Positions 3,548-50,002 of a stretch of 64,000 nucleotides of DNA are shown here, piece after piece. Both the position numbers and the translations under genes were made by a program. This DNA comes from Azolla caroliniana (lineage: Eukaryota; Plantae; Polypodiophyta), in contig JBHGNT010000014.1 of the NCBI GenBank assembly GCA_043228905.1, positions 8,308,001-8,372,000 of the forward strand, in the 5' to 3' direction. The notes beneath the pieces are model-generated. The model saw nothing but the letters and a program-made list of their open reading frames with translations. It had not been told where the DNA came from and did no database searches. Numbering within the stretch: position 1 is the first letter of the stretch; each line of letters starts with the position of its first letter.

Positions 3548-4337
3548 TGTCGTGCCTTTCGGCTCCGGATCGTTGCGTGAGTCGGGTGGGAACCACAGAG
3601 GTCTTGGACTAGGAGAAAGAAGTTCGTGAGATAAAGATTAATTATGAATAAATAGCGAAGAGAAAGATAAGAAACTCGTGAATCACACGAGTATACTATA
3701 TTAATTGGTACTTAGGGTGTTAAGAGAGAAGTAGATGTATAAATCGTGAATCCCACGAATAATTTTTGTATTGATTAATACTTAATCCAAATAACCAACA
3801 ACCCTTTACATATTTCTCTCCTCCTTATATAAGGAAAGAAGAGCTAAGCATGGCTTCATGCTTTTCTTTTTTTTACAAAAAGTGTTCATGTCCACTAAAT
3901 GTGCATGTGATGCTTTTTTTTATTTCCTAAGTATAGGGCTCATGCACGCTAGATGTGCATGAGTTATTTTTAGTGTCTCGCGTTTTTCTTTTTCATATAT
4001 TAAAAAAAATACACGATTTACCTTTTAATAAAGGTATGCATAAATAAAGGTCTTATACATATTAAATCTATATTTAGAACACTTAAGATAGTTTAATGTA
4101 ATGGTAAGGTTGGGGTTTGTCAACGTGGAGGTGCAGAGTTCGAATCACGCCCTGCGCAGTAGTGAGTATTTCCTATCTTTTTACATTTATGTCTCTTTAT
4201 CCGGCTCTTCCTTGCCGGTATGCCGTTTTCTTCCTTGCCGGTATGCCGTTTTCTTCCGGTTCTCCCCGAGCACTCCATTCTCTATCCGGAGGAACAAAAA
4301 TATAATTTCCACATAGTGTGCAACCTACACTACGACA
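3548..4337 (-). repeat. 5' LTR (790 bp)
   Basis: TGTCGT/ACGACA termini; both ends homologous to the LTRs at 34749, 44759 and 47462. Confidence 0.88.
4088..4152 (+). promoter_or_regulatory. tRNA-like A/B-box cassette inside LTR, antisense to element
   Basis: TAATGTAATGGTAAG...GGAGGTGCAGAGTTCGAATC with tRNA-like spacing; no full cloverleaf. Confidence 0.6.
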
Positions 4338-24074: not shown

Positions 24075-24200
24075 GAAAATTTACACTAGTTACATGTTGA
24101 TGAATAGTAAAAGGGTTATGGTTAACACTTCGTAATTTATTCTCCCTATGTTGTTTTAGCTCTAAAATATAGATACCTAGTGTCATAGACACGATGGAAT

Positions 24201-24260
24201 GTAAGGGGTTGAACCCATGACCTCTTGGTCGTATTGGGCAACCTTACCAATTGAGCTATA
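24201..24260 (-). promoter_or_regulatory. tRNA-like A/B-box cassette in Tcn1-like LTR, antisense (copy at ~29245-29303)
   Basis: TAGCTCAATTGGTAAG...GAGGTCATGGGTTCAACCCC. Confidence 0.65.
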
Positions 24261-24633
24261 TTCCATCTATGCATTATTGTATTGTATAAGTTTCAACTTA
24301 TTACATTGTAAGTTAATCACTAGAACTTTCAAGAAACTTCTAGAGAATGCATAGACATGCACTCTCTAGAAGTTTCCATGCATTCTCTAGATGTTTCCTA
24401 GCTTACATGGATACCACCACATTCTTGTATAAATACTTCGGTGCACCTTGATTACAATCAAGGTGAACAACACCAGTTACGGATGCATAATTTAGTTCTC
24501 GCTCTTTTTTCTACCCTCTCTCTCTCTCTTGTTCTCTTGTCTATGCTCCTCTCTATCTATATATCTATCTTTCTCTCTTTGTTAATATTGAGCTCGCCTA
24601 CTTGTCCTTGCCCTCGTCTATGTCCGTGATAGT

Positions 24634-24644
24634 TTGTTCACCTT
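24634..24644 (+). promoter_or_regulatory. Self-priming PBS (Tf1 type)
   Basis: TTGTTCACCTT is the exact complement of AAGGTGAACAA (24460-24470), which starts 32 nt after the start of TATAAATA (24428). Confidence 0.75.
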
Positions 24645-27600
24645 CCCTTCTTATTACCATGTCTGACTCGGCCTTAAACCAAGTAATGGCAGCCTTGGAG
24701 CAACTTCAATTAGAAAATGAAAGCCTTCGTCAGTCATTGTGAGAGCTTCAAAATAGCACAGCCAACAATCCTTCACCCGTTGAGCCTCACCTTCCGTCCG
24801 CATCTAACCCAACCCCTTCCTCTTCCCATTCATATGTCCTCGAACCTAACGTCAGCCTACTACACAAATTCAACGGCTCGAGGGCGCATCTTCATGGCTT
24901 CATCAATCAAATTTGGCTTATCTTCCGCTTACAACCCCAACGTTATGCTAGTGATGTCTCTCTGGTCGGCCTTGTTGGCAACCTTCCCTCTGGGCCGGCA
25001 CAAGCGTGGTTTGCACCATTGATCGAGACCTCATCACCCCTCCTAGACAACTTTCCTACCTTCCTTGCGGAGCTTGAAGCCACATTCGGAGAGATAGATC
25101 GACGACGAACAGTACTCACGAAACTCTATTCCTTACAACAAGGCTCTCAGCTTCCGTTTATGCTTCAGAGTTTCGCCAGATCGTGTGCGATGTCAGCTGG
25201 GATGAGCAAGCTTTATGCGACCAGTTTCGTCGAGGCCTCCGAAATGATATCAAGACTCTTCTCTTAAACTTTCCGGAGCCCACATCATTGTCCCAGGTAA
25301 TCTCCCAAGCCATTCAATGTGATAATCATCGTTTTGAGCTTCGACAAGAGGAATGGAGGAATCAAGTTTTTCCATCTTCCTCCCGCAATACTCCACTCAC
25401 AAGGCCATACATATCAGTTTCGCCAAGCACGCCACGACTGCCATCTTCCAATAGTACTCATACCCCGATGGAGGTTGATCCTTGTACCCCAATTGAGATC
25501 GCCCATGCTCGGTTCCAACCATTAACCGATGCCCAACGGCAACATCGACGTGACAATAGCCTTTGCCTCTTTTGTGGTACCCCCCGGCCATGTCATCCGC
25601 CACTGCCCGATGCGCAACTGTCATCATCAATCCCACTGTGCACGTCTTACAGAGGTTTCTCAACAACAAGAAAATGATCGTGCACGTCTTGCGGAGGTTT
25701 CTGGACAACAGGAAAACGAGCAAGTCTGGCTGCAGTAGGACCCATGCCGCTGGACACTTTCCATCGCCCTAGTTCTTCGTGCTCCTACAATTCAGTCACG
25801 CCAGCAGGAGGTTTTACTTTGCAAGTAAGTCTTTGTTTTGGGTCTATTTCAATAAAATCCCATGCCTTGCTCGATTCTGGTGCATCTATTTGTTTCATCG
25901 ATATCGCGTTCGCCCGAGCACATAAAATCCCAACCATCCACACAACACAACCCGTATCTGTTGAAGCTATCGACAGACGAGTTCTCTCTTCAGGGGTAGT
26001 TACCGAAGCCACTCTCCCGTTGGTATTTCAAGTCGGGTTCCACCAGGAGGTATTAAAATTCTACCTCATTGCAACCCCTCGTCATCCGTTTGTTTTACGG
26101 CTCTCCTGGTTGGAAACACACAATCCGATGGTGGATTGGTGTAGCCGCTCCATCACTTTTCCACAAACACCAACGCAGGCCCTTTCCACAAACACTTTTA
26201 CTTGTGTGGGGGTTTCTTTTAGCTTGGGTGCACATTCTTTTGATTTCAACTCAATCTCCAACATTGCCGATTCTATTGTGGCCGATTCTAGCGTGGTCAC
26301 TTCCGTGCCTATTGTGTCACAGGACGTCCCTACTCTTGTCACCAATTTACCTGCAAGATATAGCGATTTTTTGGACATGTTTGAAAAGCAAAATGTAGAC
26401 CGGTTGCCGGCACATCGCCCTTATGATTGCCCAATCGAACACCCACCATTTGGGCCCATCTATGGGCTATCTGAACCCGAACTTGAGGCCCTTCGCACAT
26501 ATCTGGATGAAAACCTCGCCAAGGGTTTCATTCAACCCTCCAAATCACCGGCTAGAACCCACCCCAATCTTATTTCTCAAGAAGAAGGACGGCTCATTAC
26601 ACCTATGTGTGGATTATCGGGGTTTGAACAAAATTACGATACGTAATCGTTACCCCTTTCCTTTAATTCCAACACTTCTTGACCGACTTCGAACTGGGCA
26701 TATCTTCTCGAAAATCGATCTTCGGGGAGCCTACAATCTTGTGTGTATCAAGCCAAGAGACGAGTGGAAAACGGACGTCCGAACACGCTATGGACATTTC
26801 GAGTACAAGGTGATGCCTTTTGGTCTCACCAACACCCCTGCGGTCTTTCAACACATGATGAACAATATATTTCGGGAGTATCTCGATCACTTCGTGGTGA
26901 ACTACCTTGATTACATTTTAGTTTTTTCTTCCAACATAGAGGAGCACACCCGACACGCCCGATTGGTCCTATCCAAACTTCGGGAACATGGACTTTACGT
27001 CAAAAGTGAGAAATGTGAATTTGATTGAACCTCTATCAAATTCCTAGGCTACGTGATTTCACCCTCCGGGGTCACAATGGATGCACGCAAGGTAGCGGCA
27101 ATCACCGATTGGCCTTTCCCTACTCACTTGAAAGAGGTACAATTATTTCTTGGTTTTGCAAATTTCTATCGACGATTTATCAATGGTTTTTCATCTTTAG
27201 TACAACCTCTAATCATCCTTACAAGAAAAGATACTCCATTTCTTTGGACCTTTGCGGCGCAACGTGCTTTTGATGCCCTCAAGGCAGCTTTTCTCAGAGC
27301 CCCAGTGTTGGTCCCAACCAGACGACGAGGGCACACTACGTCATGTTGCCTTCTACTCTCGGAAGTTTACTGCCCCGGAAATCAATTATCCAGTCTACGA
27401 CAAGGAGCTGATAGCAATCATATCTACATTCACCGAATGGCGACCCTATTTGGCTGGGGCCCAACATCACATCCAAGTGTTGACCGACCACAAAAATCTA
27501 ATTTACTTCACCACCAGTCGTACATTGAATCGGAGGCAAGCCCGATGGTTATCTTTTCTCACCAACTATGACTTTGAGATCTTGTTCCGACCCTGAGTTC

Positions 27601-29674
27601 AACATGGGAAAGCGGATGCCCTCTCTCGGCGACATGATTTTGCATTGCGCCCAGGAGATGATGCATATTCACAAAAATCCCATTGTTTGTTGCGGCCCGA
27701 TCAACTTCAGATGTTCGCCACCTGCATGTTACATGATGATTCTTTGCCCAACGAGATCGCCACGACAACCGTGTCAGACCCATTCGCCAAAGAAATCATG
27801 GGTTGCATTAATGACCCATCTTCAGATAGTAAAAGCTCATATCTCAACCAATTTACAACCCAGGATGGGTGACTATATCGTAATCATCTCTTGTACATTC
27901 CCGAAGGATCATGTCGTACACGGGTTCTACAAAATTGTCATGATGATCCTCTTGCCGGCCACTTTCGGGTTACGAAAACCCTGGAATTGCTATCTTGAGG
28001 GTTTTGGTGGCCCCAAGCTTCGAAATTTGTCAAGGAATTTATCAAGACATACGATGTATGTGCTCGGTCCAAAATGCCTCACCATTGGCCATATGGTCTT
28101 CTCCACTCGCTCCCCATTCCACGTCGACCATGGGTCTCTCTATCCATGGACTTTATCACCGACCTCCCTCTGGTTGGTGGACATGACACGATGCTAGTCA
28201 TTGTCGATCGGTTTTCGAAGATGGCTCACGTTGTTCCATGTTCCAAAACCATTTCCGAGGAAGAGACATCTGATCTTTTTCTTTAAAATGTTGTTCGATT
28301 GCATGGCTTAACTAAGGATATCACCTCTAATTGAGGTTCTCAGTCCATTTCCCACTTTTGGCGACAACTTCTACAAACATTCGGAACTTCTGTCAACTTG
28401 TCCTCAGCATACCATACTCAAACTGATGGACAAACGGAGTGAGTCAACCAAATCCTTGAACAATACCTTCGGTGTACCGTGAGCTACCAATAGGTGGATT
28501 GGGTGGACTTCCTTGCAATGGCGGAATTTGCTTACAATAATAGTATCCATGCTTCGACTAAGGTTCCCCCCTTCTTTGCAAACTATGGATTTCACCCTCG
28601 TTTCAGCATTTCCATACCTGCAACTTCGGTCAATCCTTCGGCAGAGACGTGTGTCAGCGCTTTACATGATGTCCATCGTGAGCTCTCCTTGGAGCTCTGT
28701 GTTGCTAGTGACCACTATAAAGGTCAAGCGGATCGACATCGCTTAGCTACACCGACGTTTGCAATCGGGCACATGGTTTGGTTGTTATGTCGTCACATCG
28801 CCACCACATGTCCTTGTGCAAAATTGGACTACAAACGACTAGGCCCTTTTCGTATCATCAAGCGGATCAACCCAGTCGCCTTCCGGTTAGCACTTCCTCC
28901 AACATTCAGGATTCACGATGTTTTTCACGTTTCCCTCCTCAAACTCTACCATCCTTCTCGAATTCCAAGACAACACCCTCCTCCATCGCCACATGTGGAA
29001 TTGTCAACGGGCGAAGAATATGAGGTTGACCAAATCGTCCACTCTCGATATCGTCGTCGACAGCTCCAATATTTGGTCTAATGGAAAGGTTACCCCATTT
29101 TAGATGCCACATGGGAACCAGTTACACATTTACAAAATGCTCTGGATGCCACTCGCGATTTTCATCAACGATACCCACATAAGCCAGCCGCGAGTCTCGG
29201 GAGGCGGCCTTAAAGGGAGGATAATGTCATAGACACGATGGAATGTAGAGGGTTGAACCCATGACCACTTGGTCTTATTGGGCAACCTTACCAATTGAGC
29301 TACATTCCATCTATGCATTATTGTATTGTATAAGTTTCAACTTATTACATTGTAAGTTAATCACTAGAACTTTCAAGAAACTTCTAGAGAATGCATAGAC
29401 ATGCACTCTTTAGAAGTTTCCATGTATTCTCTAGATGTTTCCTAGCTTACATGCATGCCACCACATTCTTGTATAAATACTTCGGTGCACCTTGATTACA
29501 ATCAAGGTGAACAACACCAGTTACGGAAGCATAATTTAGTTCTCGCTCTTTTGTCTACCTCTCTCTTTCTTGTTCTCTTGTCTATGCTCCTCTCTATCTA
29601 TATATCTATCTTTCTCTCTTTGTTAATATTGAGCTCGCCTACTTGTCCTTGCCCTCGTCTACTGTGATACCTAG

Positions 29675-31680: not shown

Positions 31681-31817
31681 TAAATTTATAAACTCTACAC
31701 CTCTTAATACATTGAATGGCCCTAACCACTAAGCTTTTGCCCTAATATTTATATTTTAGCTCTGCCGTCTTTACCCCTTTTCTCATATACTTGTCATGAT
31801 ATGACATTGTACGACTC

Positions 31818-31876
31818 CGAAAGAATTCGAACCCATGACCTTGTGTTACATGGGCTAAACTCTTACTATTAAACCT
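31818..31876 (-). promoter_or_regulatory. Degenerate tRNA-like cassette in second Tcn1-like LTR, antisense
   Basis: GGTTTAATAGTAAG...AAGGTCATGGGTTCGAATTC; same position in the LTR as at 24201. Confidence 0.5.
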
Positions 31877-32163
31877 TGAATTGTAATACAAAAGATATTA
31901 GTTTCATTTATTATTTCTATAGGAAATTCATGTATATTCTAGATTATTATGGATCATTCTAAAAACTTCAAGATTAATCTTGATGCACTATAAATAGAGG
32001 CATAAGGCATTATTTCAAACCAATTCGGTTCAACCTCAGTAGTAAGCCACATAGTTATTTTTGTATATTCTCTTCATAAAACATATTGTTTGTACCGAAT
32101 TTGCTTCGTTCTCATCTTCGTATCCCTCATTCCCTTCATACAAATATTCTTATCCTTCCTTCT

Positions 32164-34730
32164 TGTTACCCGTAAGAATATACGGGGAGGCATAAGGGTA
32201 TGTGTAATGATGTGGTTGATGTGTATGTATAAAGTAAATGAGTTTGTGAGGATGAGTATGTGTATGGACATATGCTCAATTATGTGCATCTGTACAAGAA
32301 TGTGTAACGGTCTTATTTATAACGGTCTGTAACCATTACATTGGATGTATTATATAAACCCCCTATGGGGTATGTAATGAGATACCTTTTTTCCCCTCTC
32401 ACATTTGTGTCATTTTCTATTTGTCTTTCTCTCTAGCTCTCTCACTATCGTAACCCCCTTGGGAGGGGGGTGAAGCCCCAACAACACTTTTGGCACGCCC
32501 TACGGACAACCCTCCCTTGAGAGGAAGTCTCTCTCCCTCCCTCCCTATTCCATCCATTCCCTTTGTTTCTTCATCTCGTGCACCAGACATCTCCATCTCC
32601 ATATTCATCAAAGTGTGTTGTTGCGCCACTTCATAGTGAAAGACATCGGAATGAGTCTGTTGCCATTGATACTTGATCTCTACTTTGACCAACACTTGAT
32701 TTGCAATACCGGGTTCTTTTACACTATATGCTTCCCAAGAAGAGAGTTGTTGGGGAAATCTTTGAAGAAAGTATACTCAGAATAGGAGGAACAGAGCACC
32801 AATACAACCACGGTTGTTGATGGAAGTCCTTCCCAACCCTAACCGTCGGTTCCCCCTCTAGTCCCAAACCTTCCATCTGCCTCGTCATCTTCTTCTCTAA
32901 GCTCTTGCTATACCACCTATACCACAACTCCGCAGGCAAAAAGGCTTGTGCATCTGCTCTCCATATCATCGATCTTGTCGCAGCACAGTTTCCATGGATC
33001 TCAATGAAGAAGGAATCGTCAAAAGGGATGTTTACTTGTACCTCTTCTCCTGCAGAATCAATTACTCTACTACGGCGGTGAGTACTGCTGATTCTGATTA
33101 ACCTCTTCCTACCCTCGGTAGGAATTCTCAGATTCGGATGAGGCGGAATAATCATTGGAAAGAGCATATCTGAACATTGCATATGATCCAGAAGCAATAA
33201 ACGACCCAAGCATGTATAACTTCGATGGAAACTATGGGGAGTTGAAGAAGAAGAAGAAGAATAAGAATACTATGCTGTCAAAGAAGAAGAAGAGAAGTGA
33301 TGTGATGGATCATAGAGACATGGTTGTATCTGGAGCAGACGATAATCTCAAAAAAAAGTACAAGTAACTACTACCCTAACAACACTACCACGCCATCAAG
33401 AATTGTGGCCGGTCGCTATAATGCCCATCAATCTGTCACACCTACGTCTAAAGAAGTCAATTTCTTCATCCATTTCCTCTGTTTCTACCATTCCTAATAA
33501 GAAGCAAGACCGAAGGACCTACAGATCCTTCACTTCATCTCTGCCACTGTACCACCTCCGCCATGGTAGTCGGTGTTGCTGCATTGCCTGCCAACCTTGT
33601 AGTGAAGAGAGCCATCATAACTTGCAGCGGCTATCCATCCCGTTCAGGCCTCACTACACTTGTCAAATCAGCCCCACCTTCTACTCTCTCAAACGCTCCA
33701 TCAATATGTTCCACTGATCTTCATCTCCGAAGCTCGGTATCATCGAGAAAGCAGGCCACAATTACCACCAAGGGCAGTCCTCATGGGTCAGACACCCAGG
33801 AATGATGGACAGCCGCTGCCACTGCCATCACCGCCGTAATCGCCTAGCCGCCATCCACTAGAATCGAAAGGTTCCAATACAAATTGAAGAATTGAAAAGA
33901 GAAAAGAGAAAGGGGCAGAGAAGAATATTACAAGAACTCGAGGGCACACACTCGAATTTCAAAAGCTCGAGGGTAGAAGACAAAATTTCAAAAGCACAAG
34001 GGCACAATACGAAATTTTAGAAACTCAAGGGCACACAAGCTAATTTTGGAAGGGCAGGACATGAGATTTGTAATATTGGAGGGTACTTAATATAATTTTA
34101 GAAAAAACCTGAGGGGTAGGACATAAAATTTCAAAAACACAACTCACATGAAGAAAGAAAGAATACACAAACGCACAACACAATTTCACGACCCATGCCA
34201 CATTGAACTAGCCGATTGGTGGATGATCCAATCGCGACTTGTGTTGGTTCGCGTCAAGCAAAGCTCTGATCGAAGTTATCAATTGTAGAGCAGTGATCCG
34301 GTCGAGCGATTTTCGACCGTTGAGACGACCGATGGAGTTCCGGTCGAGAAGAGTCGCCATAGCGAGTGGGTTCACCGTGCAATGCATTGTCCCACGGACG
34401 TGCCATGTGTTACTTGTAAGAATATACGGGGATGCATAAGGGTATGTGTAATGATGTGGTTGATGTGTATGTGTAAAGTAAATGAGTGTGTGAGGATGAG
34501 TATGTGTATGGACACATGCACAATTATGTGCATGTGTACAAGAATGTGTAACGGTCTTATTTATAACGGTCATGTAACCGTTACATTGGATGTATTATAT
34601 AAACCCCCTATGGGGTATGTAATGAGATACCTTTTTTCCCCCTCACATTTGTGTCATTTTCTATTTGTCTTTCTCTCTAGCTCTCTCACTATCGTAACCC
34701 AGAATGGCTTCACCCCCCACCCCAACAACA
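32164..34730 (+). mobile_element. Non-autonomous LTR element (TGTTACC family) with PBS-like motifs at both internal ends
   Basis: Two 323-bp LTRs (32164-32486, 34408-34730); TSD CTTCT/CTTCC; TGGCACGCCCTACGGACA at 32491-32508; TGTCCCACGGACGTGCCA at 34388-34405; no recognisable retro ORF. Confidence 0.88.
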
Positions 34731-34748: not shown

Positions 34749-35495
34749 TGTCGTAGTGTATTTCGTACACTACATGAAAAACTTATAAAGTAACGTTTTA
34801 GTAAATATGAAGAAATAGAAGAAAATGTCAAAATAAATAATACATGCATAGGGCAAGATTCAAACCTTGCACCTCCATGTTAATAATGTGAAACCTTTCC
34901 ATTACACTAGCATTTCATTAGTGTTAAAAAGTAGATGTCGCACATAGAAAGCTAAGTTCACCTAGGATAAACTTTAGTTAAAAGAAAAATGCATGCTAAA
35001 AGAAAAAGTTACGCATGCACATCTAGCGTGCATGAACGCTATAGTCGATAAAAAACGCAAAAGTTAGAAAAAGCATGATCACTTTAGATAAAGCATATAG
35101 TCTATCTATAGGAAAAGCATGGAGTCTATAGTTAGAGGAAAAGCATGAATTACTAAGACTCCCTCATCACTATATAAGGATGAGGAGCACAATGTAATAG
35201 GGGTGTGAAATATTTGGGAAATTGGATATATTTCCTAAAACACTAATTAATATAATCATGCGATTCACAAAGTTTTATATAATCTATCTCTTCCAATCTA
35301 TGATAAATTGTTATTAGGATTCTAAATATTAATAAATCTAATAATCTATACTTGTGGGATTCACAAGTTTCTATCTCTCTTTCTAATAATCTATACATAA
35401 CTATAAACTTGTCTCAAATTCTTCCCCCTCCTAGTCCAAAACCCCAGCGGTTCCCACCCGACTCATGCAACGATCCGGCGCCAAAAGGCACGACA
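34749..35495 (+). repeat. Solo LTR of the Trp-primed Ty3 family
   Basis: TGTCGTAG...GGCACGACA; similar to 44759-45397; no PBS follows; flanks ACAG/ACGA do not match exactly. Confidence 0.85.
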
Positions 35496-43100: not shown

Positions 43101-44861
43101 TGTTGACGACTTATGTTGCAATTCGAAATGCCATGACCACTTGGGGCTACTCCGTTTGACGTTCGAAAAATGCAGAACCTATCAACTCTCTCTCAACCCG
43201 CTCAAGTGTCAGTTCTAGGTCAAGCACGGAATAATATTAGGACACGTCGTGTCCCGCCACGGGATCTCGAACGACGAGGCAAAAGTAAAACTCATCCTCG
43301 ACATGCCACCCCCCACGAACGAGAAACAACTACATGGGTTCATGGGATATGCGGGTTACTATAGACGCTTCATTAAGATGTTCGCCGGACAAGGCTAGAC
43401 CACTCTACTCCCTATTAAAGCAGTTCGTATGGACAGAGGAATGCACACACTCCTTCAAACTCTTGAAAGAGTGCCTAACTAAGGCTCCCATCCTCCGGCC
43501 TCCCAACTGGACCAAAGAATTCCACGTGCACACTGACGCTTCCGCCTTCGCGATTGGTGCAGTGCTAGCCCAACCCGGTGAAGGGGCACTCGACCTACCG
43601 GTCACCTTCGCTAGTCGCCAGCTAAATGCCGCGGAACGAAATTACTCCACGACGGAACGGGAGGCTTTGGCCATGGTCTACAGCGTAAAGAAATTCCGCC
43701 ACTACCTGTTGGCGTCCCGGTTCTCGTTTTTTGTAGACCATCAGGCCCTACTCTACTTAGTAAACAAAACTCATGCCACTGGACGCATCTCACGATGGAT
43801 TGTAACGTTACTCGAATTCGACTTCAAGGTAGTAGTGAGAAAAGGGAAAGACCATGTACTCGCCGATCATTTCTCCCGGATTCCCAACGGAGAAGAAGCC
43901 ACTGGGGTCGATGATGAAACACCAGATGCAGCATTATTTGCAATCGATACCGTACCAGCATGGGCATCAGACATAGTTCGCGTCCTAACCGAAGGAGCGT
44001 CCTTCCTAAAACAACTACCACGAACACACGCACGTGCCTTGCTAAAGAATTGTGGCCCCTTCACGATGCTCCGAGGCAATCTATACCGTCGAGGTAATGA
44101 CAATCTACTTCGGAGGTGTATAACAGACCATGATGTCGTCACCACCCTCGAACAAGCTCATTGCGGGGGCGGAAGTGGTCATTTCAATCACGAGACCACT
44201 GCGCGCAAGATCCTTCAGTCCGGCCTATGGTGGCCAACACTCTTCAAAGACACATACGCGTACGTACGTCGCTGTGACGAGTACCAACGTTTCAAACACC
44301 CGCTAAAAGCGAATTTTAATACGTTAAACTCGGTGGTGGCATGGCAACCATTCGAGAAATGGGGTATCGACTTTATCGGCCCAATCAGCCCAGCTTCCAA
44401 CCTCAACCGATACATAATAACCGCCACCGACTACGCCACCAAGTGGGTTGAAGCGAAAGCTTGCGTTAACGCTGACGCGGGTAGTACCGCCAAATTCCTA
44501 TATGAAAATGTCATCGTACAGTTTGGATGTCCGCTCGAAATCATTAGTGACCGAGGCTCACATTTCTTGAACAAGGTGATAGCACATTTATTAGGGGAGT
44601 TTTTGGTGACACACCGCAAAAGTTCTCCTTATTACCCTCGATGCAACGGACAAGCGGAAAGCACAAATAAGGTGCTATGTGCAGTACTCACAAAGATAGT
44701 CGCTGCCTCCCGATCTGATTGGAGCACCAAACTCCAAGCAGCATTATGGGCTTTCCGTTGTCGTAGTGTATTTTGTACACTACGTGAAAAACGTATATAG
44801 TATTAGATTCAATAAAAAATGAAGAAATAGAAGAAAATAGCAAAATAAATGGAACATGCAT

Positions 44862-44923
44862 AGGGCAAGATTCGAACCTTGCACCTCCATGTTAATAATG
44901 TAATGTCTTACCATTACACTAGC
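44862..44923 (-). promoter_or_regulatory. tRNA-like A/B-box cassette in LTR, antisense (copies ~47565-47626 and ~34851-34911)
   Basis: GCTAGTGTAATGGTAAG...GGAGGTGCAAGGTTCGAATCTTGC. Confidence 0.65.
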
Positions 44924-45435
44924 ATTTCATTAGTCTTAAAGCATAGATGTCCCACATAGAAAGGTAAATTCACGCTAGGATAAACATTAGAAAAACGCAT
45001 AACAAAAGAAAAAGCTACACATACACATCTAGCGTGCATGATAAAAAACGCACAAGTTAGAAAAAAGCATGATCACTTTAGATAAAGCATATAGTCTATC
45101 TATAGGAAAAGCATGGGGTCTATAGTTAGAGAAAAAGCATGGATTACTAAGACTTCCTCATCACTACATAAGGATAGGAAGCACAATGTAATTATGTGAA
45201 AAATATTTGGAAACTAGATATGTTTCTAAAAAACACCAATTAATAAACTATACTCGTGGGATTCACGAGTTTGCTATAACTCTTTCTTACAACATATTTA
45301 TATTCTTATTAGCCTTAAAACTCTCTTCTTCCTAGTCCAAAACCCCAGTGGTTCCCACCCGACTCACGCAAACGATCCGGAGCCGAAAGGCACGACACAG
45401 TTGGTGAACCCGACGTGAAGGCGGGTGGCAAGGAG

Positions 45436-47460
45436 ATGGAGAATCAACAAGAGGCAATGAGCATAACGATGATGATGATGTTCGAGCGGATGCTACAAGA
45501 ACAACGAGTGATGTCGGAGATCACGGGGGCAGTAAAGCGGCTCGTACAACGAAACGGACAATTCAACGGAAACGATGTGTCACGCTATCTACGTGACTAC
45601 AAGGCGGAGATGATACGATGTGGGATACCGGAAGGATTGCAAGTGACATCCTTCAATCGGGTGGCCACGGATGAGCTACAAGAGAGAATCCACAAGATAC
45701 GGCAACAAAACTCGACATGGGGGTCATTCGAAGAAGCTTTACGAGAGGCATATGATTACAAGAGATCAAAGGGACAAGATCGGCGAAAATTCGACGAATG
45801 GGTGGCATCGGAGAAGACCCACCGAAGTGCAACACAAGCATTCCTAGAGTTCGAGAATCGTTTTGCTCAACTCTCGGAGCGGGAACAACGGTTGGTGGGG
45901 GAGGATAAAGTCCTAATGTTCGTAAAATCGATCGATCGAAAAGAAAGGATGGACATTGGGATCGAACTCGAAGATGATGACGGTGCGAACGGCCTTACCG
46001 AGGATTGGGCTAAAGTCGAAAGGGTATGCCGAAGACATGATGAAAGGAAGCTGAGAATCTCGTCAACAACGACATGGCCCATGAAGGATGGTCGATTGAG
46101 GAAAAACGATGAAGCCAATATGAAGGCCGAAATACAACATGATGGTACCACGGGAGAAAGAGTGGAACAAGACACCCACTCGTCTTGTGAAAGAACGATG
46201 GCGAAGGATAAGGCCGATAATTCAAGTGTAGAAGGAAATTTCGGGATACAAGTGCCCGAGACATCGGGTCAAAAAGGGGTAAGCATAATAGATGTTTGCA
46301 TAATTGATGCAGATAAAGAGTGTGAAGCGGATGTGATTAAGGAGGTAGCCACAAAAGACGAAATCGAATCGGAGGTGGCTATGGACGAATCAATGGCGGA
46401 TTGCGATATCGAGACTTCCCCACCACTGATTCCAGAGACTCCGGCGGTTGCGATCGAAAGGCAACGTGAGACCGAAGAGACGGAAGGTGGCAGAGAGAAA
46501 ACGAATGTCGAAGCCGACGAATACGATGAAGAGATAGCCGAGAAGAATGCTAAGGGTGAAACTACGAAAGAAGGTAATACCGAGGATTCATGCCAACAAT
46601 ATCTAGAGACTTCGGCGGTTGTGTCCGAGAACCAACGTGAGACCGGAGAGACGGGAGATGGCGGCGAGGAAGGTAAAGTCGGAAGTCGGTTCGGATGGAA
46701 AATGATCCATCCGAAATTCCAATCTAAAAGAAAGTGCGACAATGCGGAGGTCGGGTCTACGACGGGAGAAGCGCGTAATACAGAGCACGCTCTACGGCGA
46801 ATAAAGAAACGCGTGTTATGGCGAATAAAGAAGCACGCGCTACGGCGAGAAAAGAAGCATGCATTACAACCACATGAGGACCGAACAACGAGCACATATC
46901 GGAGGACCTACGTAGCGAACAACGGAAAGAAGTGCCGAAAGTCGAACCGGACAAGGCAGGTGAAAACGAAGAAAAGAAAGCAAATCCGGACGAAAAGAAA
47001 AGAAAAGAAACCGACCCGAAAGAGCACTGAATCGGTAAAAACCGATCAACCGAGTCCGGATCGACCGAATACAAATCGGAAAGGAAGCCGAACTAAACGA
47101 AAGACGATCCGACGAGACCGAATCGGAAGTAAGCTAATCCGACTAAGCCGAAAATCCGAAAAGAAGTCGAGATTGATGAAGAAAAGAAAGAGGGCAAGAA
47201 AAGATACTACCGCGGATGACAAGGACCAAGCGGGCCATGCAAAAAGCGAACGAAGACTATGGTGGATCGGATGTCGACAATGGTTCGGGTGGAAAGAATG
47301 GATGTGCTCCAAATGGAGAGACAAAGTCAACATAACAAGAGAAGTCGAGGGTACTACGAGCCGGCAACGAAACCAATCGGGTAGAGACCGGACGGAGGAG
47401 ACTAACAAACACCAACAACTTCGGCACATACCGGAGGATGTGCGGGTTCGGAGGGGGTGA
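45436..47460 (+). CDS. Gag-derived protein with acidic middle and highly basic C-terminus
   Basis: N-terminal ~200 aa homologous to gag at 1470-3509 (LVQRNGQFNG.DVSRYL); uninterrupted to a TGA next to the 3' LTR. Confidence 0.8.
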   Translation: MENQQEAMSITMMMMFERMLQEQRVMSEITGAVKRLVQRNGQFNGNDVSRYLRDYKAEMIRCGIPEGLQVTSFNRVATDELQERIHKIRQQNSTWGSFEEALREAYDYKRSKGQDRRKFDEWVASEKTHRSATQAFLEFENRFAQLSEREQRLVGEDKVLMFVKSIDRKERMDIGIELEDDDGANGLTEDWAKVERVCRRHDERKLRISSTTTWPMKDGRLRKNDEANMKAEIQHDGTTGERVEQDTHSSCERTMAKDKADNSSVEGNFGIQVPETSGQKGVSIIDVCIIDADKECEADVIKEVATKDEIESEVAMDESMADCDIETSPPLIPETPAVAIERQRETEETEGGREKTNVEADEYDEEIAEKNAKGETTKEGNTEDSCQQYLETSAVVSENQRETGETGDGGEEGKVGSRFGWKMIHPKFQSKRKCDNAEVGSTTGEARNTEHALRRIKKRVLWRIKKHALRREKKHALQPHEDRTTSTYRRTYVANNGKKCRKSNRTRQVKTKKRKQIRTKRKEKKPTRKSTESVKTDQPSPDRPNTNRKGSRTKRKTIRRDRIGSKLIRLSRKSEKKSRLMKKRKRARKDTTADDKDQAGHAKSERRLWWIGCRQWFGWKEWMCSKWRDKVNITREVEGTTSRQRNQSGRDRTEETNKHQQLRHIPEDVRVRRG

Positions 47461-50002
47461 GTGTCGTAGTGTATTTTGTACACTACGTGAAAAACGTATA
47501 TAGTATTAGATTCAATAAAAAATGAAGAAATAGAAGAAAATAGCAAAATAAATGGAACATGCATAGGGCAAGATTCGAACCTTGCACCTCCATGTTAATA
47601 ATGTAATGTCTTACCATTACACTAGCATTTCATTAGTCTTAAAGCATAGATGTCCCACATAGAAAGGTAAATTCACGCTAGGATAAACATTAGAAAAACG
47701 CATAACAAAAGAAAAAGCTACACATACACATCTAGCGTGCATGATAAAAAACGCACAAGTTAGAAAAAAGCATGATCACTTTAGATAAAGCATATAGTCT
47801 ATCTATAGGAAAAGCATGGGGTCTATAGTTAGAGAAAAAGCATGGATTACTAAGACTTCCTCATCACTACATAAGGATAGGAAGCACAATGTAATTATGT
47901 GAAAAATATTTGGAAACTAGATATGTTTCTAAAAAACACCAATTAATAAACTATACTCGTGGGATTCACGAGTTTGCTATAACTCTTTCTTACAACATAT
48001 TTATATTCTTATTAGCCTTAAAACTCTCTTCTTCCTAGTCCAAAACCCCAGTGGTTCCCACCCGACTCACGCAAACGATCCGGAGCCGAAAGGCACGACA
48101 CCGTACTTCCTACAAAGTCGCAACTCGCCACACACCATTCAAACTGGTGTACGGGCAAGAAGCAGTATTACCCATCGAGTTCCTTGTCCCTAGCCTCAGG
48201 ATCGCCGTAAAGGAACGATGGGAAGGGGACCCCCTCCCGTCATGCCTAGAGAACCTAGAACGACTGACAGAAACTCGCCTTCTCGCATTCCAGGCACTCT
48301 TGGCAAAGAAAGCCAATAGAAAGGTGTGGCACGACAATAAAGTCAAGAACAAAGACCCCGCAGAAGGCGACATGGCCCTTAAATTCTCCTCTCAACGACA
48401 CAAGAAGAAGTTGAAGCTACGGGGCGAAGGCCCGTATGTGGTTTCAGAGGTTACCAAGACAGGAGCATGTCGCCTACGCATGATCGAAGGTTTTGACATC
48501 CCCGGGTTCATTAATGGGAGCAAGCTCAAACGTTACTATGGACCCCTCACACTCGAGGCTCTACTCACGGCTCGGCAACGAGAGGTAGAGGCCAAATTTA
48601 AAGCCTCCGAAGGCCGAATGGCCCTGCTCGAAACCAACCTGCGCAACACGCAAGCGAAATTGAAGCGACAGGGACACGCCCATCCGACAGCCATGGCTCG
48701 GGCGGCCAACTCTAATGATGGGACAATACAACTACAATGTCGTGTCGACGACATGCCTTTGTCGGCGGTAATCGACACAGGAGCATCGCTAACCCTTTTC
48801 TCCTTTGAAACATGGAGACGTCTAGGTTGCCCAAACCTCGAAGTGTGCATCGACAACTTCCGTGGCTTCGATGGGTCTACGTCATGTTGCTTGGGAATCT
48901 TCGGGTGTAACATCAAGACAGAATACAGCGCGCACTTAATCCAAGTTTGGGTACTCCCACCCGGAGTGATGCACACACAATGCCTCCTCGGTTTAGATTG
49001 GTGTCACATAAGCGAATGTCTCCTATCACCTAGCAAACACATCGTCTCTTTTCAAACAGGAGGTGGGCTGAAGTCTGAGGACCTCCTCGCAACAACACTC
49101 GAATCACATCCCGTTGTCCTCGCTGACCCCCAAAGCGTGGAGCTACCCAAACAAGCAACACACCGACACCCATTGGCCGCCCATAGCCAATGCAACACTT
49201 ACAGTAGAACACAGACACCCAAACTACGAGAATGGGTGAACGTCCACGCTGTGTTCGCTGAAGGCCCACGCTACGGAGAGCGTGCGGTATGGCGAGTCAG
49301 GAAAATACTCACAACCGCACAAGGGTGGCACAATGGCGCCACTAGCGTCTGGGTCCCGAAACGAAGCCGACTCCCCAGTCTCGATCATACCACGCCTGCA
49401 GGGGACATCAATGAACCCCAAGACGCGGAGTCGCTCAACCAAACCAAACGCCAACATCCATTGGCCACCCAAGACCAGCGCGACGTTGACGTCAGAACAC
49501 GAACACCCAAACCACGGGAATGGGTGAATGTTCACGCTGTTTTTGCGGACGGGCAACGTTGTGGAGAACCCGCCATTTGGCGAGTCAAAAAGACACTCAC
49601 AACAGCACAAGGTTGGTACAAAGGCACCACTAGCTTTCGGGTCCCGAAACGAAGCCAACTCCCCAGTCGCGATCATACCACGCCTGCAGGGGACACCCGA
49701 AAAGCACACACATCGGCCCGGTATCCCGCCCAGGCTAAAGCCACAGGAAGCGACAAGCCTAAACAACGGAGAGACCGAACACCCCGTAGGAAGGTTTCAC
49801 AAATCCTCCCCACCCCCTTAACAAACATGCCGCAGGTTTAGATCCTTAAAAGTCACAGATCCGGAACCTCACACGATACCCAAGTGACACTCCCTCCACA
49901 GTCGCATCCTCAAGGTTCCTCAAAAGCCCTTAATTTACCCAATCCCCTACCACGTTCCTCGGAGACCCCCGTTTAGACCGCCCTCACCATCGATATCCGA
50001 AT

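What the first reader, a model, noticed from the sequence alone, without database searches (positions are those of the whole stretch)
44862..44923. Antisense tRNA-like Pol III cassette built into U3 of the Trp-primed Ty3 LTRs
Seen: TAGTGTAATGGTAAG (A box) and GGTTCGAATC (B box, in a GCAAG/CTTGC hairpin) at tRNA spacing, antisense, ~100-250 nt from the LTR 5' end. Present at 44862, 47565, 34851 and 4088. In the diverged 4088 LTR the boxes are kept while surrounding sequence is not. Known: Cassandra TRIMs carry 5S Pol III promoters in LTRs, and TFIIIC-bound tDNA/B-boxes act as chromatin barriers in yeasts and mammals. Inference: an insulator shielding the LTR promoter, or an outward/antisense Pol III transcript.
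Basis: partly seen in the sequence, partly recalled or inferred. Interest (0 to 1): 0.7.

Follow-up and report, generated by a model that had tools for sequence, protein, structure and literature searches.

The report
tRNA promoter boxes inside moss LTRs
The terminal repeats of two unrelated jumping-gene lineages in a likely moss genome carry a back-to-front, tRNA-derived piece that has lost the tRNA shape but kept both RNA polymerase III promoter boxes, which likely serve as a protein-binding site that helps the element's own promoter stay active, although no binding or transcript has been shown.

Summary
Real and non-random. A tRNA-type A box and B box at tRNA spacing lie antisense in U3 of four LTRs of a Phygy-like Ty3 subfamily in a bryophyte. 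Against the diverged 4088 LTR the boxes match at 23 of 25 bases, the rest of U3 at 163 of 326. The cloverleaf is lost and there is no SINE-type duplication. New here: an unrelated, self-primed Tcn1-like chromovirus in the same window (24181, 29225) carries its own antisense cassette, and a related Phygy-like element (L035) carries one in sense. All lie upstream of the LTR's own TATA. Best reading (0.45): a captured tRNA/SINE head kept as a TFIIIC-binding DNA element. Against it: 28 of 29 sister LTRs lack it, and the B-box CpG is mutated in about 40% of the laid depth, mostly at the invariant C56. Closest known: Helenus TRIMs and foamy-virus LTR Pol III cassettes; membership in both fails. Earlier notes of this scan report similar cassettes in fungal LTRs, one judged a passenger. 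New variant of a known kind; function untested.

The parts
44857..44928 (-). tRNA-derived cassette in U3 of the 5' LTR (tRNA positions 1-73; no cloverleaf)
   Evidence: (Rfam tRNA 13.4 bits, below the 29-bit cut-off)
44907..44921 (-). A box region (T8 = 44921, G18-G19 = 44912-44911)
44869..44878 (-). B box (G52-C61); CpG at 44873-44874
44814..44845 (-). T4, T4 and T6 runs, candidate Pol III terminators inside U3
44759..45397 (+). 5' LTR (639 nt) of a gag-only Phygy-like element; TATA-like motif near 45164
45402..45419 (+). primer-binding site (tRNA-Trp type; the match to plant tRNA-Trp is recalled)
45319..47460 (+). single open frame: gag-like N-terminus (55% identical to gag of the 4337 element); no pol in the element
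47450..47461 (+). polypurine tract
47462..48100 (+). 3' LTR, identical to the 5' LTR; 4-bp target duplication CCGT at 44755-44758 and 48101-48104
47560..47631 (-). cassette copy in the 3' LTR
34749..35495 (+). orphan LTR of the same subfamily (flanks do not form a clean duplication)
34845..34916 (-). cassette copy with B box C56 to T at 34862
3548..4337 (-). diverged 5' LTR of an element with gag-protease and RT frames (pol runs off the window)
4087..4158 (+). cassette copy, antisense to its LTR; A box from 4094, B box 4137-4146, T5 at 4178-4182
24181..24631 (+). 5' LTR of an unrelated Tcn1-like chromovirus (11-nt self-priming complement at 24460-24470; 5-bp duplication CCTAG)
24194..24265 (-). 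second-lineage antisense tRNA-like cassette, 6 of 7 acceptor pairs
29225..29669 (+). 3' LTR of the Tcn1-like element
29238..29309 (-). second-lineage cassette, 7 of 7 acceptor pairs inside a 12-bp inverted repeat; Rfam tRNA 19.1 bits
31825..31875 (-). weaker candidate: decayed cassette of the second type near an LTR-like start at 31792 (G18 and C61 changed)
   Evidence: (13.2 bits; best of 10 shuffles 10.1)

Best explanation
The cassette is a tRNA-derived piece in U3, upstream of the LTR's own TATA, that has lost the cloverleaf but kept the A box, the B box and their spacing, and it is likely maintained as a TFIIIC-binding DNA element that would keep the promoter side of the LTR open in the replicating source copies. 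Shown: position, orientation, box conservation, loss of fold, T runs downstream, presence in two unrelated lineages, and one sense-oriented case. Inferred, in order: (1) capture of a tRNA gene or SINE head into one LTR and copying to both by reverse transcription; (2) TFIIIC binds the boxes, possibly with a by-product Pol III RNA of about 85-115 nt that stops inside U3; (3) the bound complex locally opens or bounds chromatin between the insertion flank and the Pol II promoter, which matters because these elements insert at CG sites inside other transposons; (4) selection acts only through copies that replicate, so old copies lose the B-box CpG.
For: Boxes 23 of 25 identical between the 44759 and 4337 LTRs, against spacer 4 of 14 and rest of U3 163 of 326 (Fisher p 3e-5). 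In contigs of two DNA runs, sites with 6% or more other letters: 3 of 54 (X1) and 4 of 54 (X18) in the cassette without its spacer, against 12 of 65 and 16 of 65 in the flanks (p 0.051 and 0.014). No variant row falls on T8, G10, A14, G18 or G19, and no indel row falls in the cassette. Loose-end consensus sequences from X1, X6, X10 and X19 replace the spacer but return to the A-box core in the same register. A profile of the three distinct window copies alone finds the cassette in L039 (15.8 bits, E 0.002), an LTR whose only BLAST match to the 44759 LTR is 23 nt at the B box. RNA shape is not what is kept: 8-13 of 21 cloverleaf pairs; fold z from -4.9 to +0.95 over 8 copies. A second lineage has its own cassette, and L035/L034 carry one in sense about 75-90 nt upstream of the TATA. 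TFIIIB/TFIIIC and tRNA genes act as barriers in yeast and animals (PMC9540200, passages). Target sites are CG-centred in 35 of 46 distinct flanks.
Against: 28 of 29 full-length sister LTRs from the metagenome loci and both Trp-primed A-type LTRs of the window lack an A+B pair, yet are abundant. The invariant C56 reads T in 28% (X1), 26% (X18) and 41% (X19) of the laid depth, more than the tolerated G57 to A (13%, 13%, 11%); selection on C56 predicts the opposite excess. In the orphan LTR 7 of 16 CpGs show transition decay, the B-box CpG among them, so the site is not protected in old copies. The conserved island extends past the boxes (44854-44868 and 44879-44892), which TFIIIC binding alone does not explain. 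The 4088 copy has G10 to A; L034 has lost 5 nt of the A box; some loose-end consensuses break G10 or G19. Common origin of the sense cassette with the antisense one is not shown: 10.0 bits against 8.2 for a real tRNA. Other U3 motifs are conserved as well. The passages I read of the plant barrier review give no plant tDNA barrier.
Confidence: 0.45

Rival explanations
1. Slowly decaying passenger: a SINE or tRNA fragment fell into U3, rides along, and the island is conserved for another reason (a Pol II factor site or a hairpin) or only looks conserved.
For: Most sister LTRs do without it (28 of 29). C56 to T in 26-41% of laid depth. The island is wider than the boxes. Kojima 2024 notes that 'not a few' Repbase LTRs hold tRNA-like parts and proposes SINE insertion as their origin (PMC10886601).
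Against: Boxes 23 of 25 against spacer 4 of 14 between elements whose gag is only 55% identical. Spacing is fixed. A-box changes fall mostly on free positions. No target duplication or tail. The same kind of piece sits antisense in U3 of two unrelated lineages.
Confidence: 0.25
2. The product matters: Pol III makes a short structured RNA from U3, as in foamy viruses, which is cut into small RNAs or acts as a decoy.
For: Promoter plus T runs form a complete small unit. The 44862 copy folds as two hairpins (z -4.1) and the Tcn1-like copies as one long hairpin (z -4.9, -3.2). Foamy-virus LTRs make Pol III pri-miRNAs that need A and B boxes (PMC3993851, passages). The excess of C56 to T over G57 to A would fit deamination on a non-template strand (my speculation).
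Against: The fold is absent in 4088, L039, L035 and L034 (z +0.95, 0.0, -1.3, -0.2). Variants at 44900-44906 break the first hairpin. The spacer is free to change. An antisense RNA from the 3' LTR would pair with the element's own RNA and likely feed silencing (inference). The Tcn1-like cassette has no T4 run inside its LTR.
Confidence: 0.2
3. The boxes act at integration: TFIIIC on the cDNA tethers it to Pol III sites, or the cassette is a landing pad for other retroelements.
For: An earlier, unreviewed note reports fungal chromovirus LTRs with such boxes as landing pads (e1-10420520). In L074 a Phygy-like LTR sits about 40 nt upstream of a weak, decayed cassette.
Against: The four Phygy-like window LTRs align without a foreign insertion just upstream of the A box. 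Sister LTRs without the cassette use the same NCGN target. The L074 cassette scores within the shuffled range (6.1 bits).
Confidence: 0.1

Closest known systems
Helenus (TRIMp3; Kojima 2024, PMC10886601; parts 1-4 of 6 of the text and searched passages read, figures and supplements not seen)
   Same: tRNA-derived sequence in the LTRs, conserved around boxes A and B, not a functional tRNA; one plant family (Selaginella); origin by SINE capture proposed.
   Different: Helenus are non-coding TRIMs of 311-1263 bp whose box pair is proposed to drive the element's own RNA; the paper states that autonomous partners must use Pol II. Here the carriers are a 3.3-kb gag-only element and elements with gag and pol frames, the cassette is mostly antisense and followed by T runs, and the LTR keeps a TATA. 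The words 'antisense' and 'opposite' do not occur in that paper's text.
Cassandra TRIMs (as described in the introduction of PMC10886601)
   Same: Pol III promoter from a small-RNA gene inside plant LTRs.
   Different: 5S type, sense, starts the genomic RNA, non-coding element.
Foamy-virus LTR Pol III miRNA cassettes (Kincaid et al. 2014, PMC3993851; passages read)
   Same: Small A box/B box/terminator units inside the LTR of an autonomous retroelement that itself uses Pol II.
   Different: There the hairpin product is shown and functional. Here the fold is not conserved and no RNA is shown.
tDNA/TFIIIC chromatin barriers of yeast and animals (PMC9540200; passages read)
   Same: A/B boxes placed between a promoter and silenced chromatin.
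   Different: Host loci, not mobile elements. The passages read give no plant example. Binding is untested here.
Phygy and Tcn1 clades (Neumann et al. 2019, PMC6317226; passages and two supplement rows read)
   Same: Phygy: 4-bp NCGN duplication, tRNA-Trp primer. Tcn1: self-priming chromovirus of mosses and club-mosses.
   Different: The passages read describe no tRNA-type boxes in the LTRs of either clade.

Membership tests
Helenus / TRIMp3 | tRNA-derived sequence in the LTR, conserved at boxes A and B | tested here: met
Helenus / TRIMp3 | short non-coding TRIM (311-1263 bp) | tested here: not met
   3342-bp element with a 713-codon frame; 4337 element with gag-protease and RT frames; L035 with a 729-codon frame after the PBS
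Helenus / TRIMp3 | Pol III promoter placed to make the element's genomic RNA | tested here: not met
   antisense in all six window copies and L039; T runs 23-39 nt after the B box also in the sense case L035; TATA kept downstream
Helenus / TRIMp3 | 5-bp target duplication in plant families | tested here: not met
   4-bp CCGT for the element of the finding
Functional tRNA gene | cloverleaf and detection by tRNA models | tested here: not met
   ARAGORN 0 genes; Rfam 13.4 and 19.1 bits against cut-off 29; 8-13 of 21 pairs
SINE2 insertion | own target duplication and tail | tested here: not met
   no shared repeat of 7 nt or more in 4 of 4 window copies tested; one 7-mer each in L039 and L035, not at the cassette ends; T-rich stretch present but no discrete tail
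SINE2 insertion | free copies outside LTRs | not testable with these tools
   no whole genome held; loose ends look like LTR flanks
Phygy (Ty3/gypsy non-chromovirus) | 4-bp NCGN target duplication | tested here: met
   CCGT; 35 of 46 flanks CG-centred
Phygy (Ty3/gypsy non-chromovirus) | tRNA-Trp primer-binding site | tested here: met
   TGGTGAACC sites at 45402, 3543, 21156; assignment to tRNA-Trp is recalled, not from a call
Phygy (Ty3/gypsy non-chromovirus) | RT-RH-INT phylogeny with the REXdb Phygy references; no aRH, no chromodomain | not tested
   references not held; named RT relatives are Riccia proteins at 66-74% identity
Tcn1 chromovirus (second lineage) | self-priming instead of a tRNA PBS | tested here: met
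   11-nt complement between 24633-24643 and 24460-24470
Tcn1 chromovirus (second lineage) | chromodomain with aromatic cage | tested here: inconclusive
   chromodomain-like stretch seen by eye in the translation, with a stop in it; Pfam gave SH3_Tf2-1 but no chromo hit on the frame scanned
tDNA/TFIIIC barrier | TFIIIC occupancy and blocking of silencing | not testable with these tools
   needs ChIP and reporter assays
tDNA/TFIIIC barrier | site stays unmethylated | tested here: not met
   indirect only: B-box CpG changed in about 40% of laid depth and in the orphan LTR; says nothing on young source copies
tDNA/TFIIIC barrier | works in either orientation | tested here: inconclusive
   sense cassette in L035/L034, but common origin not shown
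Foamy-virus-type Pol III miRNA cassette | conserved hairpin precursor | tested here: not met
   fold z below -3 in 3 of 8 copies only, with different folds
Foamy-virus-type Pol III miRNA cassette | small RNA detected | not testable with these tools
   only contigs were available, no stranded reads

The most novel reading that the evidence does not exclude
Moss retrotransposons of at least two unrelated clades have independently turned tRNA genes into built-in TFIIIC-bound insulators in U3, carrying their own patch of open chromatin into methylated, transposon-dense DNA: a mobile tDNA barrier and an anti-silencing device of plant LTR elements.
Probability: 0.3. Interest if true: 0.8.

Novelty: new variant of a known kind. 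Interest (0 to 1): 0.5.

Why it matters
Known Pol III promoters in LTRs either drive a miniature element (Cassandra, proposed for Helenus) or make viral miRNAs (foamy viruses). A box pair kept backwards in coding elements that have their own TATA fits neither use. If it binds TFIIIC, it is a cis-acting way for a plant retrotransposon to resist silencing. It would also make the open question of tDNA barriers in plants testable in a moss, with natural controls: sister LTRs without the cassette, a sense-oriented version, and C56 mutants. If it is a passenger, it is only a source of tRNA-like repeats for annotators.

Tried and rejected
No whole genome is held, so no genome-wide LTR tree, free-SINE search or insertion map. 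Viral collection: 3 scans, nothing. Prokaryote collection: 1 hit in a bacterial MAG, not examined and left out. Runs: no RNA holder listed. One contig of the guessed-RNA run X23 (depth 2.9) crosses the cassette and runs on into LTR sequence; X19 is probably DNA; neither bears on strand or expression. Summed contig depth peaks over 44853-44929, and in X19 falls almost only on 44853-44894, but the tool warns that depth is no copy number, so I do not count it, nor the parts without cover. None of the 75 metagenome loci holds the subfamily of the finding itself, so they serve as outgroup. One search used a misregistered structure string and is void; redone (53.6% of cells paired against 49.2% shuffled, 15 of 500 shuffles as high; anticodon stem 32.5%): at most a trace of tRNA ancestry. 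The real-tRNA control row printed empty. ARAGORN at a lowered threshold gave 76 mostly spurious calls and was not used. A loose LTR-start-plus-box pattern gave 4 hits against 2.0 by chance: not significant. Box-like hits in L030, L051, L066, L067, L071 and window 15281, 34246, 59491 were treated as chance. The lack of an upstream CAA is uninformative, since CAA is rarer outside angiosperms (PMC13437025 and PMC13578239, passages). A MITE origin for the 12-bp inverted repeat of the second lineage was rejected: its flanks show no duplication. The ancestral tRNA type was not determined.

Full report
Setting. The window is a nest of LTR retrotransposons. The RT of the element behind the 4088 copy has its closest named relatives in the liverwort Riccia (66-74% identity). 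A self-primed chromovirus is also present, a type that Neumann et al. 2019 found only in mosses and club-mosses (PMC6317226, passages). I infer a bryophyte host, likely a moss. The family of the finding has a tRNA-Trp-type primer site and a 4-bp CCGT duplication; Phygy is listed with 4-bp NCGN duplications and tRNA-Trp priming (supplement row). I call it Phygy-like, since I could not place it on a reference tree. The element 44759-48100 has identical LTRs and one gag-like frame; the element behind the 4337 LTR has gag-protease and RT frames, and their gag regions are 55% identical.

The observation. On the minus strand an A box starts at 44921 (T8) and a B box spans 44878-44869, 43 nt apart, as in the real tRNA-Gln of L017. 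Copies lie at 47560-47631, 34845-34916 and 4087-4158. A strict box pair occurs 0.0002 times per shuffled LTR. It is no tRNA gene: ARAGORN finds none, Rfam gives 13.4 bits against a cut-off of 29, and 8-13 of 21 cloverleaf pairs form in the eight cassettes tested (one search shows at most a trace of the ancestral fold).

What is conserved. Between the 44759 and 4337 LTRs the B box matches at 9 of 10 bases, the A-box region at 14 of 15, the V region at 12 of 14, the spacer at 4 of 14 and the rest of U3 at 163 of 326 (p 3e-5 for boxes against the rest). Contigs of DNA runs laid on 44790-44999 show 6% or more other letters at 3 of 54 (X1) and 4 of 54 (X18) cassette sites, spacer left out, against 12 of 65 and 16 of 65 flank sites. 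These contigs were filtered at 80% likeness and are not independent copies. No row falls on T8, G10, A14, G18 or G19, and none inserts or deletes within the cassette. Loose ends in X1, X6, X10 and X19 replace the spacer and return to the A-box core in register, with some breaks at G10 or G19. The fold is not kept: z is -4.1 at 44862, -1.9 in the orphan and +0.95 at 4088. So sequence and spacing are kept and RNA shape is not, which points to a DNA site. The kept island is wider than the boxes, and other U3 motifs are kept too.

Results against. The B-box CpG is changed in about 40% of the laid depth: C56 to T in 28%, 26% and 41%, G57 to A in 13%, 13% and 11% (X1, X18, X19). The orphan LTR carries T56 and shows transition decay at 7 of 16 CpGs. 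This is the pattern of ordinary methylated transposon DNA, so old copies are not protected. The excess of the damaging change over the tolerated one is unexplained; amplified T56 subfamilies would argue against a needed B box.

Distribution. A scan anchored in U5, outside the cassette, returned 75 metagenome loci, none of the finding's own subfamily. Of 29 full-length LTRs, 1 (L035) has a box pair; the window's Trp-primed A-type LTRs lack it too. Two more cassettes turned up: antisense in a second LTR within L039, found by a profile of the window copies alone (E 0.002), and sense in the 5'-cut L034. L035 and L034 have it in sense, about 75-90 nt upstream of the TATA, followed by T4 and T5. Whether the sense cassette shares an origin with the antisense one is open: it shares a non-canonical purine at position 48 but scores only 10.0 bits against 8.2 for a real tRNA. 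The Tcn1-like element at 24181-29669 has a different antisense cassette at the very start of U3, with 6-7 of 7 acceptor pairs. So at least two captures, perhaps three, ended in U3 upstream of the TATA.

Origin. No repeat of 7 nt or more flanks the cassette in the 4 window copies tested, and there is no discrete tail. An old SINE-head or tRNA-gene capture, as Kojima proposes for Helenus, remains the likely origin; free copies could not be sought without a genome.

Mechanism. T runs 23-31 nt behind the B box would stop Pol III inside U3 after about 85-115 nt in the Phygy-like copies, so the unit cannot make the genomic RNA and would not read outward. The Tcn1-like cassette has no such run. I rank a TFIIIC-binding DNA element that favours the Pol II promoter of source copies first (0.45). 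The grounds are that boxes are kept without fold, that both orientations occur, that the place is always between LTR edge and TATA, and that the elements insert at CG sites within other transposons. TFIIIB/TFIIIC and tRNA genes are barriers in yeast and animals (PMC9540200, passages), and Arabidopsis tDNAs in heterochromatin can themselves be methylated and silenced (PMC7544208, passages), which fits decay in old copies. A passenger (0.25), a functional small RNA (0.2) and a role at integration (0.1) stay open. Binding, transcription and any benefit are inferred, not shown.

What is known. Helenus TRIMs carry tRNA-derived boxes in LTRs, and the paper notes that 'not a few' Repbase LTRs hold tRNA-like parts, but it followed up only elements under about 1 kb (PMC10886601; figures and supplements not seen, and they may show orientation). 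Foamy viruses carry Pol III miRNA units in the LTR (PMC3993851, passages). A 2026 sugar-beet paper cites only Cassandra, Helenus and Ajax for such LTR motifs (PMC13570524, passages). Ten full-text searches (listings read) showed no report of antisense tRNA-type boxes in U3 of coding plant LTR elements; the library lacks most subscription papers and Repbase entries. Three unreviewed notes of this scan describe tRNA-like pieces in likely fungal Gypsy elements, two of them in LTRs; none was found for these LTRs by sequence or place.

Verdict. Observation confirmed with corrections; interpretation partly supported; a new variant of a known kind, recurring in two lineages, with untested function. 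Interest 0.5.

Noticed in passing
window 24181-29669: Unrelated self-primed Tcn1-like chromovirus with its own antisense tRNA-like cassette 13 nt from the LTR start, an intact acceptor stem extended to 12 bp, and no T4 run before the LTR ends, so a Pol III RNA would run into the flank.
   Followed up: yes
window 31792-32170 and L074:2626 (minus): Two further LTR-like starts (TGTCATGA) with decayed antisense cassettes that resemble the second type; only the window one scores above shuffles.
   Followed up: partly
L035:512-2045, L034:119-190: Phygy-like subfamily with the cassette in sense just upstream of the TATA, followed by T4 and T5; L034 lacks 5 nt of the A box.
   Followed up: yes
L008, L023, L027, L044, L045, L059, L064: 7 of 29 full-length sister LTRs have a lone sense B-box-like motif (3 with C56, 4 with T56) downstream of the TATA, without an A box; may be chance.
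   Followed up: no
window 44896-44921: In this subfamily the spacer is a near reverse complement of the A-box arm (10-bp hairpin), which suggests template switching; other subfamilies lack it.
   Followed up: partly
window 44763-44783 and 4333-4313 (minus): A short inverted repeat right behind the LTR start is kept in all four LTRs although its loop differs.
   Followed up: no
window 44759-48100: Gag-only element with identical LTRs, inserted into the integrase region of another Ty3 element; the 4337 element sits in a copia gag.
   Followed up: partly
loci L001-L075: CG-centred 4-bp targets in 35 of 46 distinct flanks; already listed as NCGN for Phygy.
   Followed up: yes
L017:5-76: A genuine tRNA-Gln gene (Rfam 71 bits) about 2.2 kb from a Phygy-like LTR end.
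   Followed up: no
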